Sequence record: MN850633.1
Reading direction: 5' to 3' (one strand)
Length of the DNA: 64,000 nt
From: Escherichia phage allfine
The position numbers and the translations under genes are program-made. The notes under the pieces were generated by a model, which saw only the letters and a list, made by a program, of their open reading frames with translations, did no database searches and had not been told where the DNA came from. Shown here piece by piece: positions 4,182 through 38,202 of this stretch; positions within the stretch are counted from its first letter, which is position 1; each line of letters starts with the position of its first letter.

Positions 4182-4473
4182 GGTTTTTGACCCTTATGCC
4201 CCACAAGATGATTGGGAGGCTGATAGAGAGACTGAAATGGAGAGTTATATTTGTCCAATGGATGTAGACGAAATGAGAGGCTTCGTTGCACATCGTTTTA
4301 AGAGAGAGATTAAATCCAGAGGTCTTTCTCAAGAGCAAGTTGCTAAAATTTGTGGTATCTCTCAAGCTCGTGTATCCAACATAATCCACCTCACTGGGAA
4401 TGTTTCTCTTGAGTATATGTTGGAAGTATGTGAAAAATTTGGTGTTAATTTCAATTTAAGGTTGGCAGATTAA
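4174..4473 (+). CDS. helix-turn-helix DNA-binding protein
   Basis: Track ORF 4144-4473, start moved to internal ATG 4174; HTH-like segment LSQEQVAKICGISQARVSNIIHL. Confidence 0.45.
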   Translation: MNEVFDPYAPQDDWEADRETEMESYICPMDVDEMRGFVAHRFKREIKSRGLSQEQVAKICGISQARVSNIIHLTGNVSLEYMLEVCEKFGVNFNLRLAD

Positions 4474-11287: not shown

Positions 11288-19303
<8,016 letters not shown>

Positions 19304-35841: not shown

Positions 35842-35918
35842 TGGTCTCTGTTGGAGGACTTGAACCTCCGGCCTTACCGCCCCAAACGGAACGCTCTACC
35901 AAGCTGAGCTAAACAGAG
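35842..35918 (-). tRNA. tRNA-Pro (anticodon UGG)
   Basis: T-arm GGAGG-ACTTGAA-CCTCC, acceptor CTCTGTT/AACAGAG exact, loop UUUGGGG. Confidence 0.55.
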
Positions 35919-36042
35919 ATAAATTTTTCAAACTCTATGTAACCACTTTAACATTATTTTTTAGTGATTGTCAAGAACTTTTTTAAAATATCTTTCAGTA
36001 TCTTAGAAAAGCTCTCGTTTCGTTTCTATGTAGAACATATTA

Positions 36043-36077
36043 AAGGGTATTAAACACATTGTCAATACCCTTTTTAA
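36043..36077. other. perfect 10 bp inverted repeat AAAGGGTATT-N15-AATACCCTTT
   Basis: Immediately 3' of the vWA gene stop; spacer contains TTGTCA. Confidence 0.35.
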
Positions 36078-36083
36078 AACTTT

Positions 36084-37499
36084 TTACCAGATGTAACGGT
36101 CAATCATTACTGCTTTGAGCATTACGCTGATTGGGTCAAACTTCTCACCACCAAGCAGAGCTTTTAAAGTGGCTGGAGAGAACCCTGATACCATTGCTAC
36201 ACCGTTATCCTTAACAGATACTTCGCAAGTACCATTACGGTTTGCTAAGTACCAGAATACCAGTTGTGGCATCTCATATCCAGCTTTTTTGTACTTACTC
36301 TGAATTGCTTCAAAGTTTGTACGACCGTTAGCTCCATCAACCTGATTGAACTCCATATCGGAGAAGATGATAAGCTTACTTGGCATATCTTTCTGAGTCA
36401 AGTTGTTTCTTTTACCTGTTTCAAGAATGCGGTCAAAAGCTGCTTGTAAGTTAGTTGAGCCATATTCAACGTGTCGCATCACCTGACGATGACGGTTTCG
36501 TAAATCACCACTCAGTTCGATGAAGTGAGGGTTTGTTGAGTAAACCATTAACTCATTCTTAAAGCAACCAGTATTGCGTTCTGCTACATACAAGGCAAGT
36601 GATACACCAATATCAAGGGCAGTGATTGAACCAAGATTCACCCAAGACATTGAGCTTGAAACATCGGTCATACACAAGATGTTCTCACCTTCTGCCATCC
36701 AGTTTGGTAGTGCTTTCCACTGCTCATTGGCAACATCTGCATTACCATGCTTGATAGACTTAATCACATCGTATGGGTAAACAGCACCAGCGTTAATCTT
36801 AGCCTCACCCTTTGAGAGTGATTCGATGTAAGCTTTGTAACGTTCTCCATCTTTACGGTTAAAGAGCTTTTGGTAACGTGCAGCAGCGAGTGAAGGAATC
36901 TTGCTGTAGTCAATCTTACCAAACTCATTAGCAGAGATTTTTTGCTCAACTGTATCAGATAGTGCAGACAACAGTGTGCGGTACTCTTTCTCACTCAAGT
37001 TGGCAAACTTGCAGAAACGTTTTATAAACTGCTTATGACGTGGTTTGACTCGTGGTAACCACTTAGCCGCCAAACCTGCTGTTGCAGGGTCTAGTAATGC
37101 TGCTTCTAGATGTTTGAAGGCATCTGTCTCGAAACGAGTACCTACGAAGATTTTGAAGTCATCAAAACGACCAAGTTCTGCAATCTTATCCATAATGCGA
37201 AGAACCTGCGTAGGCTCTAAAACTTTGTCTTCAATCGCTTGAAGTAAAACAGTTCTGAAGGCTTTACGCTCACCCATACCTTCTCGTACATCTCGCATAT
37301 GAAGCAAAATACGAACTGCAACATCAACATCCTCACGCAAAGCTTTGTAGAACAGGTCTGGTAAGATTTCTACGTTGCTACGGCTTGAACCAGCAGCTTT
37401 GTAAAAGTCTACAAGAGCAGACATTGATGAAGTATGGTTTACAGCACCATTTTCAGTTCGACCTGCATGAAGGTGCGCATGTTTAAATAATTCGCTCAT
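36084..37499 (-). CDS. vWA-domain protein with MIDAS motif and N-terminal helical domain (Ro60/TROVE-like or DUF2828-like)
   Basis: MIDAS DxSxS present as MTDVSSSM about residue 278; about 270 aa N-terminal helical region; 471 aa. Confidence 0.55.
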   Translation of the reverse strand: MSELFKHAHLHAGRTENGAVNHTSSMSALVDFYKAAGSSRSNVEILPDLFYKALREDVDVAVRILLHMRDVREGMGERKAFRTVLLQAIEDKVLEPTQVLRIMDKIAELGRFDDFKIFVGTRFETDAFKHLEAALLDPATAGLAAKWLPRVKPRHKQFIKRFCKFANLSEKEYRTLLSALSDTVEQKISANEFGKIDYSKIPSLAAARYQKLFNRKDGERYKAYIESLSKGEAKINAGAVYPYDVIKSIKHGNADVANEQWKALPNWMAEGENILCMTDVSSSMSWVNLGSITALDIGVSLALYVAERNTGCFKNELMVYSTNPHFIELSGDLRNRHRQVMRHVEYGSTNLQAAFDRILETGKRNNLTQKDMPSKLIIFSDMEFNQVDGANGRTNFEAIQSKYKKAGYEMPQLVFWYLANRNGTCEVSVKDNGVAMVSGFSPATLKALLGGEKFDPISVMLKAVMIDRYIW

Positions 37500-37580
37500 A
37501 TTTTACTCTCTTCTCTCATTTGTTTGTTGATGTGACAGACTTTAGAGCAACTTTGTAGAGTCTGTCAACACCTTTTAAAA

Positions 37581-37952
37581 TTATTTTTTGAGAGTCGCTA
37601 CAGCAGAGAACGTTGGTTTGTTATCTGTCTGAGACTGACCACCATTATCAGGGGTCTTCTTAGTGTCTGCTGCAATCGCTTTCATCTCACCTGCTGAGTG
37701 AGTCATGATGGTTTTACCAGCCTCCATCATCGACTTCAGGTTTACATCGTCAGTCGTCAAACCGAACTCTGCAAGCTTAGCAGCATCCCTTGTAACAACC
37801 GCCTCAAACAACTTTGCAGCAAACTCAGCAGAATTATCAATGGTCAGTTGAGCTTTTACAAGTGAGCTTTTGTTACGAGAGCCTTTTGGTCTTCCAGATG
37901 GGTTTCCAGACTGGCCTTTTTTAAACTGGCCTTTGTTTGTTCTGTTTTTCAT
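37581..37952 (-). CDS. basic protein with GNPSGRPKGS motif
   Basis: ORF in track; Lys/Arg-rich N-terminus. Confidence 0.45.
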   Translation of the reverse strand: MKNRTNKGQFKKGQSGNPSGRPKGSRNKSSLVKAQLTIDNSAEFAAKLFEAVVTRDAAKLAEFGLTTDDVNLKSMMEAGKTIMTHSAGEMKAIAADTKKTPDNGGQSQTDNKPTFSAVATLKK

Positions 37953-37989
37953 TGGTATGCCTCTTATAAGACCTCTTAAAAGGCTTTTA

Positions 37990-38020
37990 AGATAAAAGAT
38001 AGATATCCAGAAAGATATCT
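37990..38020. promoter_or_regulatory. palindromic operator-like site in divergent intergenic region
   Basis: AGATATC-CAGAA-AGATATCT centred near 38005, between divergently transcribed genes. Confidence 0.4.
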
Positions 38021-38127
38021 GTTTAAATAGCCTTTTTAGAGGAACCTTTTAAGTTATCTTCTAAGTATTTATAAGCCTACACCTTGTCAAGTACTTTGTC
38101 AACAACTTTTTTAACTTGCAATAGTTC

Positions 38128-38156
38128 TTGACTTGTTGTATGGATTACTGTACCAT
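38128..38156 (+). promoter_or_regulatory. candidate sigma70-like promoter TTGACT-17-TACCAT
   Basis: Hexamers at 38128-38133 and 38151-38156; GGAG RBS before ATG 38203. Confidence 0.35.
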
Positions 38157-38202
38157 CTTACTTAAAGCTGTAGGTCTGCCTTGTTCTACAAAGGAGACTT
38201 AA

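What the first reader, a model, noticed from the sequence alone, without database searches (positions are those of the whole stretch)
36084..37499. vWA/MIDAS protein with helical N-terminal domain adjacent to a tRNA cluster containing non-canonical tRNA-like RNAs: possible Ro60/Y-RNA-like system
The 471 aa protein has a clear MIDAS motif (DVSSSM) in its C-terminal half and a helical N-terminal region of about 270 aa, the domain order of Ro60/TROVE proteins. Bacterial Ro60 partners with Y-RNAs that contain tRNA-like modules. Within 3 kb on the same strand there are tRNA-sized elements that do not fold canonically (33182-33268, 34265-34346) and an orphan T-arm motif (35037-35053). This is a hypothesis, not a demonstrated link.
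Basis: inference. Interest (0 to 1): 0.65.

Follow-up and report, generated by a model that had tools for sequence, protein, structure and literature searches.

The report
Phage Ro60-like protein with Y-like RNAs
A Felix O1-type phage encodes a ring-shaped Ro60-like RNA-binding protein, and hidden among the tRNA genes just downstream are four small structured RNAs, one of them a tRNA mimic, that look like its Y-RNA partners; the protein part was already published, but these RNAs seem not to have been identified before.

Summary

The new part is the RNAs. Four elements (E1-E4, 34975-35752, minus strand) lie in inter-tRNA spacers, and none is an annotated tRNA. All share a covarying closing stem followed by CAGCAA. 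The same RNA module abuts homologous genes in many unrelated phages and prophages. Every model hit is on the gene's strand, mostly within 500 nt, including loci with no tRNAs. Binding and expression are untested. Verdict: hypothesis supported; new variant of a known kind.

The parts
36084..37499 (-). Gene for a 471-aa Ro60-like ring protein (DUF2828 N-terminal helical repeat domain, residues ~1-265; DUF7788 vWA/MIDAS domain, residues ~270-471). Ortholog of Bas63 gp130.
36648..36665 (-). MIDAS motif DVSSSM (DxSxS, residues 279-284); T349 and D381 complete the site.
   Evidence: D279, S281, S283, T349 and D381 invariant in 66 homologs
35945..36065 (-). Two sigma-70-like promoter matches (perfect -35 TTGACA; 36065-36037 and 35974-35945) between the gene's stop codon and the first tRNA. 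Probable start of the tRNA/Y-like RNA transcript.
   Evidence: consensus matches only, not enriched over shuffles
35675..35752 (-). E1: short Y-like RNA between tRNA-Glu and tRNA-Met. Outer stem UGAC/GUCA, internal loop AGA/G, 7-bp stem AGACCAA/UUGGUCU, then UUA-CAGCAA.
   Evidence: R2 49.6 bits; leave-out R3 26.1 bits, E 0.001, rank 1 in the window
35522..35586 (-). E2: short Y-like RNA between tRNA-Met and tRNA-Asn. Stem AGACCGU/ACGGUCU (two compensatory pairs relative to E1/E3), then AUU-CAGCAA.
   Evidence: 47.0 bits; 21.3 bits, rank 2
35120..35199 (-). E3: short Y-like RNA in the tRNA-Asp/tRNA-Lys spacer. Outer stem GAGC/GCUC, stem AGACCAA/UUGGUCU, then AUA-CAGCAA.
   Evidence: 48.4 bits; 16.4 bits, rank 6
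34975..35112 (-). E4: long YrlA-like RNA. Outer stem UUAC/GUAA, stem AGACCGUU/AACGGUCU, then UA-CAGCAA. tRNA-like domain in permuted order: V hairpin 35058-35074, T-arm 35037-35053, 7-bp acceptor-like hairpin 35019-35036, U8-G9, D-arm 35002-35016.
   Evidence: R1 85.5 bits, in training; R3 19.0 bits, rank 3
31005..35918 (-). Cluster of 25 canonical tRNA genes in which E1-E4 are embedded. Processing of the flanking tRNAs would release E1 and E2 directly.

Best explanation
The ORF encodes a Ro60-type protein: a closed helical-repeat ring fused to a vWA/MIDAS domain. It belongs to a divergent, mostly phage-borne branch (Pfam DUF2828+DUF7788). Immediately downstream, four small non-coding RNAs (E1-E4) are embedded in the tRNA operon, which is probably transcribed from its own sigma-70-like promoters. 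They are most likely cut out of the precursor by the same RNase P and 3'-end processing that matures the neighbouring tRNAs. Each RNA pairs its 5' and 3' ends into a stem that opens into a loop beginning with the near-invariant CAGCAA. This module is proposed to be the docking site for the protein, as the stem plus CGAA-containing bulge is for canonical Y RNAs. E4 additionally presents a tRNA-shaped head (T-arm/D-arm elbow plus a 7-bp acceptor-like stem) in place of a Y RNA's effector-binding loop, as in bacterial YrlA. By analogy with Deinococcus, Salmonella and Thermus phage phiLo, the RNAs would gate the protein's ring and tether it to a host RNA enzyme such as PNPase or a tRNA-recognising factor, redirecting RNA surveillance during infection. 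The published phenotype of the ortholog, countering the Ppl defence system, is one output of this protein. Shown here: the fold, the RNA structures by covariation, the genetic linkage of RNA and protein, and orthology to gp130. Inferred: expression and processing of the RNAs, protein-RNA binding, the partner enzyme, and the mechanism of the anti-Ppl effect.

For: RNA. The motif pair AGAAGACC...GGTCTGG occurs four times on the minus strand within 34978-35748; GGTCTGG occurs 11 times in the window against 3.8 expected. The permuted-tRNA scanner gave 31 same-strand hits, 1 opposite-strand hit and 1 hit in shuffles over 1.08 Mb; in the window it found only E4. Seventeen long elements from unrelated phages all have a stem followed by CAGCAA. 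RNAalifold, unguided, finds the four helices, with 21 of 24 pairs compensatory. 96.8% of cells are paired, against 61% in shuffles and about 40% with slid partners. In the flank-swap control, Watson-Crick stems of at least 7 bp occur in 16 of 17 native pairings against 0.4% of 256 swapped ones. The short-form stem is 100% paired, with 6 of 7 pairs compensatory.

Linkage. Every covariance-model hit at the stated thresholds is on the gene's strand: 48+71 hits in 83 phage loci, 32+32 in 10 cultured phages, and 45+27 in 80 loci from bacterial assemblies. 43 of 75 distant phage loci carry an element, 33 of them within 500 nt of the gene. All 14 element-bearing loci that lack tRNAs have the element within 500 nt.

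Other. A leave-out model with no Ounavirinae sequence ranks E1, E2 and E4 first to third and E3 sixth in the window. Mycobacteriophage homologs have an Rfam YrlA match (E about 1e-5) 120 nt downstream of the gene, and those RNAs score 90-108 bits with my model. Within Ounavirinae the module is conserved while interiors diverge, and stem changes are G-U-compatible only on this strand.
Against: No experiment shows that E1-E4 are expressed as discrete RNAs or bind the protein. Rfam YrlA and Y_RNA do not hit E4 even in a 166-nt search at E<=10. The canonical Ro-binding motif GNCGAA(N)G is absent; only a loose CAGAAG resemblance exists. gp130 alone, expressed from a plasmid or inserted in T7, restored plaquing on Ppl hosts without the Bas63 RNAs, so the RNAs are dispensable for that phenotype or are substituted by host RNAs. 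About 40% of homolog loci show no element with these models, including Vibrio phage ValKK3. Leave-out scores for E1-E4 are individually modest (16-26 bits). E1-E4 were in the training sets of R1 and R2. No sequence-level match to TROVE.
Confidence: 0.7

Rival explanations
1. The protein works alone. It is a Ro60-shaped vWA/MIDAS protein that neutralises the Ppl defence system, or another host factor, by protein-protein contact. E1-E4 have nothing to do with that activity.
For: gp130 expressed from a plasmid or from the T7 genome rescues T7 on Ppl hosts without any Bas63 RNA. MIDAS sites are classical protein-ligand sites, and the site is invariant here. About 40% of homolog loci lack a detectable element.
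Against: It does not explain why a covarying RNA family sits next to homologs of this gene, on its strand, across unrelated phages, including loci without tRNAs. Host RNAs could substitute in the T7 experiment. The Ro60 ring fold is an RNA-binding architecture in every characterised case. This rival is compatible with the RNAs serving a different function of the same protein.
Confidence: 0.3
2. The elements are cis-acting parts of mRNAs, such as autoregulatory leaders, 3' UTR stabilisers or binding sites for the protein on its own transcript, rather than free-standing Y-like small RNAs.
For: In many loci the units lie directly upstream of the gene, in a 5' UTR-like position within 400 nt, especially in prophage-like loci, or directly downstream of it.
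Against: They occur upstream in some lineages and downstream in others. They form tandem arrays of up to about 7 units (Aeromonas LAh_6). In this window they are separated from the gene by promoter-like sites and by tRNAs that must be excised. The long forms carry a complete tRNA-like domain as in the trans-acting YrlA.
Confidence: 0.12
3. E1-E4 are processing spacers, or punctuation, of the tRNA operon (RNase E/III/P guide structures). They are linked to tRNA clusters, not to the protein, and the adjacency is a by-product of both lying in the early region.
For: In this window all four lie between tRNAs. Other structured spacers exist in the same cluster.
Against: The same module abuts the gene in loci with no tRNA within 7 kb: 14 loci, all within 500 nt. 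It does so too in Listeria, Staphylococcus, Campylobacter and Aeromonas phages. Within the window's 25-tRNA cluster the elements occur only in the part nearest the gene.
Confidence: 0.08
4. E4 is just a decayed junction of two tandem tRNA genes (the 3' half of one plus the 5' half of the next), i.e. a pseudogene without function.
For: The permuted order T-arm/acceptor/D-arm is what such a junction produces. My model R1 gives weak artefactual hits on real tandem tRNA pairs.
Against: The acceptor-like strands pair with each other over 7 bp and are closed by a 4-nt loop. The hairpin is maintained by compensatory change in SUSP2 and Sf14. The whole is enclosed by a covarying stem plus CAGCAA shared with 16 analogous RNAs in unrelated phages.
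Confidence: 0.03

Closest known systems
Bas63 (Escherichia phage JohannRWettstein) gp130, PhageMaP preprint PMC11482910
   Same: Orthologous gene: 463/471 identical, with the same position upstream of the same tRNA order. Published as structurally similar to Ro60, as lying upstream of the tRNAs, and as a counter to the Ppl defence system.
   Different: The preprint only guessed that 'some tRNA genes are possibly Y RNAs'. The candidates found here are not annotated tRNAs. In Bas63 they lie in unannotated spacers, and E4 lies under the spurious opposite-strand CDS bas63_0137.
Bacterial Ro60 (Rsr) with YrlA/YrlB Y RNAs (Salmonella, Mycobacterium smegmatis; Chen et al. 2014, PMC4201824)
   Same: A ring protein plus vWA/MIDAS domain. 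RNAs encoded next to the gene on the same strand. More than one RNA per locus. One long RNA with a V/T/acceptor/D tRNA-like domain enclosed by a 5'-3' stem, plus shorter RNAs lacking it.
   Different: The protein is not a Pfam TROVE member. Rfam YrlA does not hit E4. The conserved loop motif is CAGCAA rather than GNCGAA(N)G. The RNAs are embedded in a phage tRNA operon.
Mycobacteriophage 'Ro-like RNA binding protein' with YrlA (cluster L phages; mentioned in Chen 2014 and PMC12135203)
   Same: Same protein family (31-34% identity, E about 1e-72, DUF2828+DUF7788). Same RNA family: 90-108 bits with my model, with stem plus CAGCAA and a second short unit downstream.
   Different: In mycobacteriophages the RNAs directly follow the gene and no tRNA cluster is involved. 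They are close enough to bacterial YrlA to score 38-40 bits with Rfam, below the gathering score.
Thermus phage phiLo Ro60 with Yrl1/Yrl2 and host PNPase (PMC12135203; PDB 9KOP, 9L5Y)
   Different: phiLo Ro60 is deposited in the PDB as a TROVE domain-containing protein, and its RNAs carry the CGAA motif. Here the protein is DUF2828-type and the RNAs are CAGCAA-type, and one of them is a tRNA mimic.

Membership tests
Ro60 / TROVE proteins | Overall architecture: N-terminal alpha-helical (HEAT-like) repeat ring followed by a C-terminal vWA domain | tested here: met
Ro60 / TROVE proteins | Sequence membership in Pfam TROVE (PF05731) | tested here: not met
   No TROVE hit at E<=1 for the window protein or at E<=10 for 8 distant family members; only one faint vWA_Ro60 hit at E 0.03. 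HMMER single-sequence and profile searches of PDB sequences find no Ro60.
Ro60 / TROVE proteins | Intact MIDAS site (DxSxS...T...D) in the vWA domain | tested here: met
   D279, S281, S283, T349 and D381 are invariant in 66 homologs.
Ro60 / TROVE proteins | Binds Y RNAs or misfolded RNAs | not testable with these tools
   Only genetic linkage to a structured RNA family was shown.
Pfam DUF2828 + DUF7788 / PHROG 850 | Scores above the curated Pfam thresholds for both domains, with full-length PHROG coverage | tested here: met
   DUF7788 148 bits (cut-off 27.1) and DUF2828 104 bits (cut-off 29). phrog_850 613 bits over residues 1-471.
YrlA (Rfam RF02553), for E4 | tRNA-like domain in the order V, T-arm, acceptor-like stem-loop, D-arm, with T-loop and D-loop consensus residues | tested here: met
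   Structural scanner. Hand mapping and the partial Rfam tRNA alignment. Consensus and covariation over 17 sequences.
YrlA (Rfam RF02553), for E4 | 5' and 3' ends pair to enclose the tRNA-like domain | tested here: met
   8-bp stem AGACCGUU/AACGGUCU plus a 4-bp outer stem. Helix 1 has 7 of 8 pairs with compensatory changes. Flank-swap control.
YrlA (Rfam RF02553), for E4 | Reaches the Rfam covariance-model gathering score (69 bits) | tested here: not met
   No YrlA hit at E<=10 in 7.4-kb or 166-nt searches. The related mycobacteriophage RNAs reach only 38-40 bits.
YrlA (Rfam RF02553), for E4 | GNCGAA(N0-1)G motif near the 5' end (the proposed Ro60 contact) | tested here: not met
   The 5' region reads UUACAGAAGACC, only a loose resemblance. 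The family-wide conserved motif is CAGCAA instead.
YrlA (Rfam RF02553), for E4 | Encoded adjacent to, and on the strand of, a Ro60-type gene | tested here: met
   E4 begins 972 nt downstream of the stop codon on the same strand. The same holds family-wide.
YrlA (Rfam RF02553), for E4 | Bound by Ro60 in vivo and carrying tRNA-type modifications | not testable with these tools
   Requires immunoprecipitation and modification mapping.
Metazoan-type Y RNA (Rfam RF00019 and relatives), for E1-E3 | Match to the covariance model, and the bulged helix with GGUCCGA | tested here: not met
   No Y_RNA hit at E<=10 over 30800-38200. The architecture (terminal stem plus a loop with a conserved motif) is analogous only.
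Canonical tRNA, for E4 and 34268-34346 | Cloverleaf in normal order, recognised by tRNA finders | tested here: not met
   ARAGORN calls neither. Rfam tRNA gives E4 only a partial 22-23 bits. 34268-34346 scores 31.7 bits, just above gathering, but lacks a D-arm.

The most novel reading that the evidence does not exclude
DUF2828-type proteins and CAGCAA-type RNAs form a widespread, previously unrecognised class of phage and prophage Ro-like ribonucleoproteins. Homologs occur in about 1.4% of deposited phage genomes, across Gram-negative, Gram-positive and mycobacterial hosts. Protein family and RNA recognition motif have switched together relative to TROVE with GNCGAA. In tRNA-rich phages the RNAs are produced by tRNA-operon processing. 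The tRNA-mimic member acts in counter-defence, for example as a decoy or adaptor that diverts a host RNA or tRNA-directed enzyme such as PNPase, or the trigger or effector of Ppl.
Probability: 0.35. Interest if true: 0.8.

Novelty: new variant of a known kind. Interest (0 to 1): 0.6.

Why it matters
Ro60 with Y RNA is a conserved RNA-surveillance particle and a major human autoantigen, and its role in phages is only beginning to be studied. The ortholog of this gene already has a counter-defence phenotype (anti-Ppl) but no mechanism, and its RNA partners were only guessed at. Exact coordinates for four candidate RNAs, a defined recognition module (covarying stem plus CAGCAA) and a tRNA-mimic member make the hypothesis directly testable in a tractable E. 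coli phage by RIP, EMSA and deletion. The same module next to homologs in Listeria P100-like, Staphylococcus, Campylobacter, Klebsiella, Bacillus, Aeromonas and mycobacterial phages, and in gut Clostridia prophages, suggests a general phage RNP. It also corrects annotation: spurious small CDSs such as bas63_0137 overlie these RNAs, so genome-wide knockout screens may already contain unnoticed RNA deletions.

Tried and rejected
1. Rfam scans found only tRNAs and noise, with no Y_RNA or YrlA hit: the whole window at gathering score, 7.4 kb at E<=10, and 166 nt around E4 at E<=10.

2. HMMER of the protein and of a 66-sequence profile against PDB sequences gave no Ro60 hit. Only fold comparison shows the relation.

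3. A generic regex scan (any 7-bp stem flanking CAGCA within 220 nt) gave 306 same-strand hits, 258 opposite-strand hits and 268 in shuffles on both strands. It has no discriminating power and was rejected.

4. The search for a conserved protein partner (RtcB, PNPase and the like) found no ORF family in more than 18 of 79 loci. An RtcB-like ligase is nearby only in the Listeria phage.

5. The weak model hit at 4391-4458(-) lacks CAGCAA and lies inside a coding region, so it was dismissed. R1 hits at 33294-33599 and similar sites are tandem-tRNA artefacts.

7. Literature: DUF2828 has no functional literature, and no paper was found describing these RNAs or the CAGCAA motif. Supplementary tables of Chen 2014 and of PhageMaP are not held, so I could not check which phages Chen et al. 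listed or the fitness of the bas63_0137 knockout.

Full report
WHAT THE WINDOW IS. The region 30800-38200 is 95-98% identical to more than 180 Felix O1-like myoviruses (Felixounavirus); 240 records cover at least 80% of it. In this window the terminase gene ends at 30575. A block of 25 tRNA genes occupies 31005-35918 on the minus strand. The ORF of the finding, 36084-37499(-), lies directly upstream of that block in the direction of transcription.

THE OBSERVATION. The ORF is real. It encodes 471 aa, is conserved across the genus, and is annotated inconsistently as hypothetical, 'vWFA protein', 'DUF2828 family protein' or 'RNA-binding protein'. DVSSSM is residues 279-284. In an alignment of 66 homologs at 40-89% identity, D279, S281, S283, T349 and D381 are invariant, which is a complete MIDAS signature. 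So are many basic residues of the N-terminal half, including R40, R69, R72, R78, R111 and K146. The 'orphan T-arm' at 35037-35053 is there. Of the two 'non-canonical tRNA-sized elements', 34268-34346 is a tRNA-like gene with a UCU anticodon loop, a good acceptor stem and T-arm, but no recognisable D-arm. Rfam tRNA scores it 31.7 bits and ARAGORN does not call it. The other, 33177-33272, is a conserved 96-nt hairpin with no tRNA features.

THIS PART IS ALREADY PUBLISHED. Bas63 (JohannRWettstein, MZ501086) is a Felixounavirus. Its gene bas63_0130 encodes a 471-aa protein 98% identical (463/471) to the window's. It is followed by tRNA-Pro, Glu, Met, Asn, Tyr and Asp in the same order. [quoted passage not shown] It also reports that deleting g130 sensitises the phage to the Ppl defence system. 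gp130 alone, from a plasmid or inserted into T7, restores T7 plaquing on a Ppl host. No RNA was identified there.

THE RNAS. Reading the minus strand, I noticed that four inter-tRNA spacers contain 5'-CAGAAGACC(AA|GU)...(UU|AC)GGUCUGG-3'. AGAAGACC and GGTCTGG each occur four times on the minus strand between 34978 and 35748. Over the whole window, GGTCTGG occurs 11 times against 3.8 expected. Each pair folds into the same module: a 4-bp outer stem that differs between copies (UGAC/GUCA, GAGC/GCUC, UUAC/GUAA), an AGA/G internal loop, and a 7-8-bp stem (AGACCAA/UUGGUCU in E1 and E3; AGACCGU/ACGGUCU in E2 and E4, i.e. two compensatory pairs). Two or three nucleotides and the invariant CAGCAA follow at the start of the enclosed loop. 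E1 (35675-35752) fills the gap between tRNA-Glu and tRNA-Met. E2 (35522-35586) fills the gap between tRNA-Met and tRNA-Asn. E3 (35120-35199) and E4 (34975-35112) lie between tRNA-Asp and tRNA-Lys.

E4 encloses, in this order:
- a V hairpin (35058-35074);
- a T-arm, GAAGG-UUCGAUU-CCUUC (35037-35053);
- a 7-bp acceptor-like hairpin, ACUCGGC-AGAU-GUCGAGU (35019-35036);
- U-G at the positions of tRNA nucleotides 8 and 9;
- a D-arm, GUGU-AAUGGUA-GCAC (35002-35016).

That is a circularly permuted tRNA lacking the anticodon arm. Chen et al. 2014 describe this layout for bacterial YrlA (V, T, AS, D).

COMPARATIVE EVIDENCE FOR THE LONG FORM. Homologs of the protein occur in 709 of 50,697 deposited phage genomes. 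Hosts include Escherichia, Salmonella, Mycobacterium, Vibrio, Listeria, Staphylococcus, Campylobacter, Enterococcus, Bacillus and Aeromonas. The mycobacteriophage homologs (31-34% identity, E about 1e-72) are the proteins annotated 'Ro-like RNA binding protein'. Each is followed by an unannotated gap of about 370 nt. In that gap Rfam's YrlA model matches full length at E about 1e-5 in two of the three loci, below the gathering score.

I fetched 80 IMG/VR loci carrying homologs and wrote a scanner for T-arm, then hairpin, then D-arm. It gave 31 hits on the gene's strand, 1 on the other strand and 1 in shuffled sequence over 1.08 Mb. In the window it found only E4. Every hit that was not a tandem-tRNA artefact has, upstream, a 7-10-nt segment followed by (A/U)CAGCAA and, downstream, an A-rich run followed by the exact complement of that segment. 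The stem sequence is different in each phage.

On a MAFFT alignment of 17 such RNAs, RNAalifold predicts exactly four helices without guidance: closing stem, T, acceptor-like and D. Of the 24 pairs, 21 show compensatory changes. 96.8% of cells are paired, against 61% when partners are shuffled and 37-46% when partners are slid by 1-3 columns. The closing stem, which the scanner did not use, has 7 of 8 pairs with double changes. Because I located the closing stems by complementarity, I controlled for search bias by pairing each 5' flank with the 3' flanks of other phages. Watson-Crick runs of at least 7 bp occur in 16 of 17 native pairings but in only 0.4% of 256 swapped ones.

THE SHORT FORM AND GENETIC LINKAGE. 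A covariance model of the long form (R1) finds new full-length members that were not in its training set, at 52-79 bits. It also finds matches of 65-85 nt with the tRNA domain deleted, next to the gene in loci without tRNAs. These short RNAs, three mycobacteriophage units that follow YrlA, and E1-E3 align in perfect register. The 7-bp stem is 100% paired, with 6 of 7 pairs compensatory, and CAGCAA is invariant.

A model of the short form (R2) gives 71 hits at E<=0.01 in the 83 phage loci, all on the gene's strand. In the 64-kb window only E1, E2 and E3 are significant. After merging hits and removing tRNA artefacts, the result for the 75 distant loci is as follows:
- 43 carry at least one element, and in 33 an element lies within 500 nt of the gene.
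- 44 of 74 elements lie within 500 nt of the gene.
- 45 loci have no tRNA within 7 kb; 14 of these carry an element, always within 500 nt.

The linkage is thus to the gene, not to tRNA clusters. No protein family is a comparably constant neighbour.

Cultured phages confirm the pattern, with all hits on the gene's strand:
- SUSP2 and Sf14 (two other Ounavirinae genera) have all four elements.
- Klebsiella FBKp34 has an 86-bit long form plus short units between the gene and its tRNA cluster.
- Bacillus vB_BcoS-136 has two long forms.
- Listeria (P100-like), Staphylococcus, Campylobacter and Aeromonas phages have 2-7 tandem short units abutting the gene.
- Vibrio ValKK3 has none.

An independent set of 80 loci from bacterial genome assemblies (likely prophages, proteins 33-42% identical) gives 45 R2 hits and 27 R1 hits. 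Again all are on the gene's strand. They fall in about 47 loci, mostly in the 400 nt upstream of the gene.

TESTS OF CIRCULARITY. E1-E4 were in the training sets of R1 and R2. I therefore built a third model from nine short forms, none from Ounavirinae. Over both strands of the window it ranks E1 (26.1 bits, E 0.001), E2 (21.3) and E4 (19.0) first to third and E3 (16.4) sixth, with exact boundaries. The scores are modest one by one, but four of the six best hits fall in 0.8 kb next to the gene. Within Ounavirinae, the stem-CAGCAA module is nearly invariant while the interiors of E1 and E2 diverge. Substitutions inside stems (A to G in the E2 stem of Sf14; C to U in the outer stem of E3) keep G-U pairs only on this strand. 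E4's acceptor-like hairpin is rebuilt by compensatory change.

IN BAS63 the four elements are at 16069-16143, 16236-16301, 16691-16766 and 16778-16911 of locus L085. None coincides with an annotated tRNA gene. E4 lies under the small opposite-strand CDS bas63_0137. The published guess therefore needs refining: the candidate Y RNAs are between the tRNA genes, not among them.

HOW IT MOST LIKELY WORKS. Shown: a Ro60-fold protein, a family of structured RNAs with a covarying terminal stem and an invariant loop motif, and tight, strand-specific genetic linkage of the two across distant phages. One member of the RNA family in this phage is a tRNA mimic of the YrlA type. Inferred: the RNAs are transcribed with the tRNAs. 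Two promoter-like sites with perfect TTGACA lie between the gene and the first tRNA, though these are consensus matches only. The RNAs are then released by tRNA processing and bind the protein through the stem/CAGCAA module. They would gate or tether it as Y RNAs do for Ro60 and PNPase in Deinococcus and Salmonella and in phage phiLo.

CAGCAA occupies the place that the (GN)CGAA motif has in TROVE-associated Y RNAs, which suggests that protein family and RNA motif changed together. The anti-Ppl activity of gp130 does not need the phage RNAs in the T7 transplant. So either that activity belongs to the protein alone, or host RNAs can substitute. I put 0.7 on 'E1-E4 are the cognate RNAs of this Ro60-like protein', and considerably less on any specific downstream mechanism.

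COMPARISON AND NOVELTY. The kind of system, a phage Ro60 with Y-like RNAs, is known from mycobacteriophages, CcrColossus, Bacillus phage G and phiLo. The Ro60-like nature and counter-defence role of this very gene are published as a preprint. I found no description of three things (the library is incomplete):
- the identity and coordinates of the Felixounavirus RNAs;
- the stem-CAGCAA signature;
- its association with the DUF2828/DUF7788 branch across Gram-negative, Gram-positive and mycobacterial phages and prophages.

The system fails two membership tests for the canonical families, Pfam TROVE and the Rfam YrlA score and motif, while matching them in architecture. I therefore file it as a new variant of a known kind.

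Noticed in passing
window 34268-34346 (-): A tRNA-like gene with a UCU (Arg) anticodon loop, a 7-bp acceptor stem plus ACCA and a good T-arm, but no recognisable D-arm and a long variable region. Rfam tRNA scores it 31.7 bits; ARAGORN does not call it. At the same position Bas63 has a canonical tRNA-Arg(TCT) of unrelated sequence, so the locus has been replaced by a non-canonical allele.
   Followed up: partly
window 34045-34125 (-): Another tRNA-like sequence: acceptor UGGGACG/CGUCCCA, and CCA within an enlarged anticodon-like loop. No tRNA finder calls it (Rfam tRNA-Sec 21 bits, E 1.4). No tRNA-Trp is called anywhere in the cluster, so this may be a degenerate or unusual tRNA-Trp.
   Followed up: partly
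window 33177-33272 (-): A 96-nt structured spacer between tRNA-Val and tRNA-Thr (-29.4 kcal/mol), conserved in Bas63. Its centre, CUGAAGACCGUAACAAA, resembles a decayed copy of the 5' module of E1-E4, but it has no CAGCAA and no model hit.
   Followed up: partly
window 34829-34977 (-): A 149-nt near-perfect hairpin (-47.7 kcal/mol) immediately 3' of E4 and before tRNA-Lys. In Bas63 the equivalent stretch is annotated as the small opposite-strand CDS bas63_0138. Function unknown; possibly a processing or stability element.
   Followed up: no
window 33680-33935 (-): A 256-nt strongly structured spacer (-72 kcal/mol) inside the tRNA cluster, including a terminator-like hairpin AAAGACCUUUUUAGGUCUUUUU.
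   Followed up: no
L085 16749-16901 (Bas63 bas63_0137); L086 4368-4538 (SUSP2 gp132); L093 3971-4060: Small annotated 'hypothetical protein' CDSs overlie the Y-like RNA elements in deposited genomes. They are probably spurious gene calls, and knockouts of them in genome-wide screens would in fact delete the RNAs.
   Followed up: partly
L091 5200-6455 (Listeria phage vB_Liva_VAfA18): An RtcB-like 'putative tRNA splicing ligase' lies 1.2 kb downstream of the Ro-like gene, reminiscent of the bacterial rsr-yrlBA-rtcBA RNA-repair operon. It is not a general neighbour in other lineages.
   Followed up: no
L088 4503-4616 (Klebsiella phage vB_KpM_FBKp34): An annotated 114-nt 'tRNA-Asp' directly after a normal tRNA-Asp and just downstream of the 86-bit YrlA-like RNA. 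It is unusually long for a tRNA and is possibly another tRNA-derived RNA or an intron-containing gene.
   Followed up: no
L095 1486-2461 (Aeromonas phage LAh_6): About seven tandem short stem-CAGCAA units directly upstream of the Ro-like gene in a locus without tRNAs. This is the largest array seen, and the annotated CDS start (2375) overlaps the last units, so the start may be mis-called.
   Followed up: no
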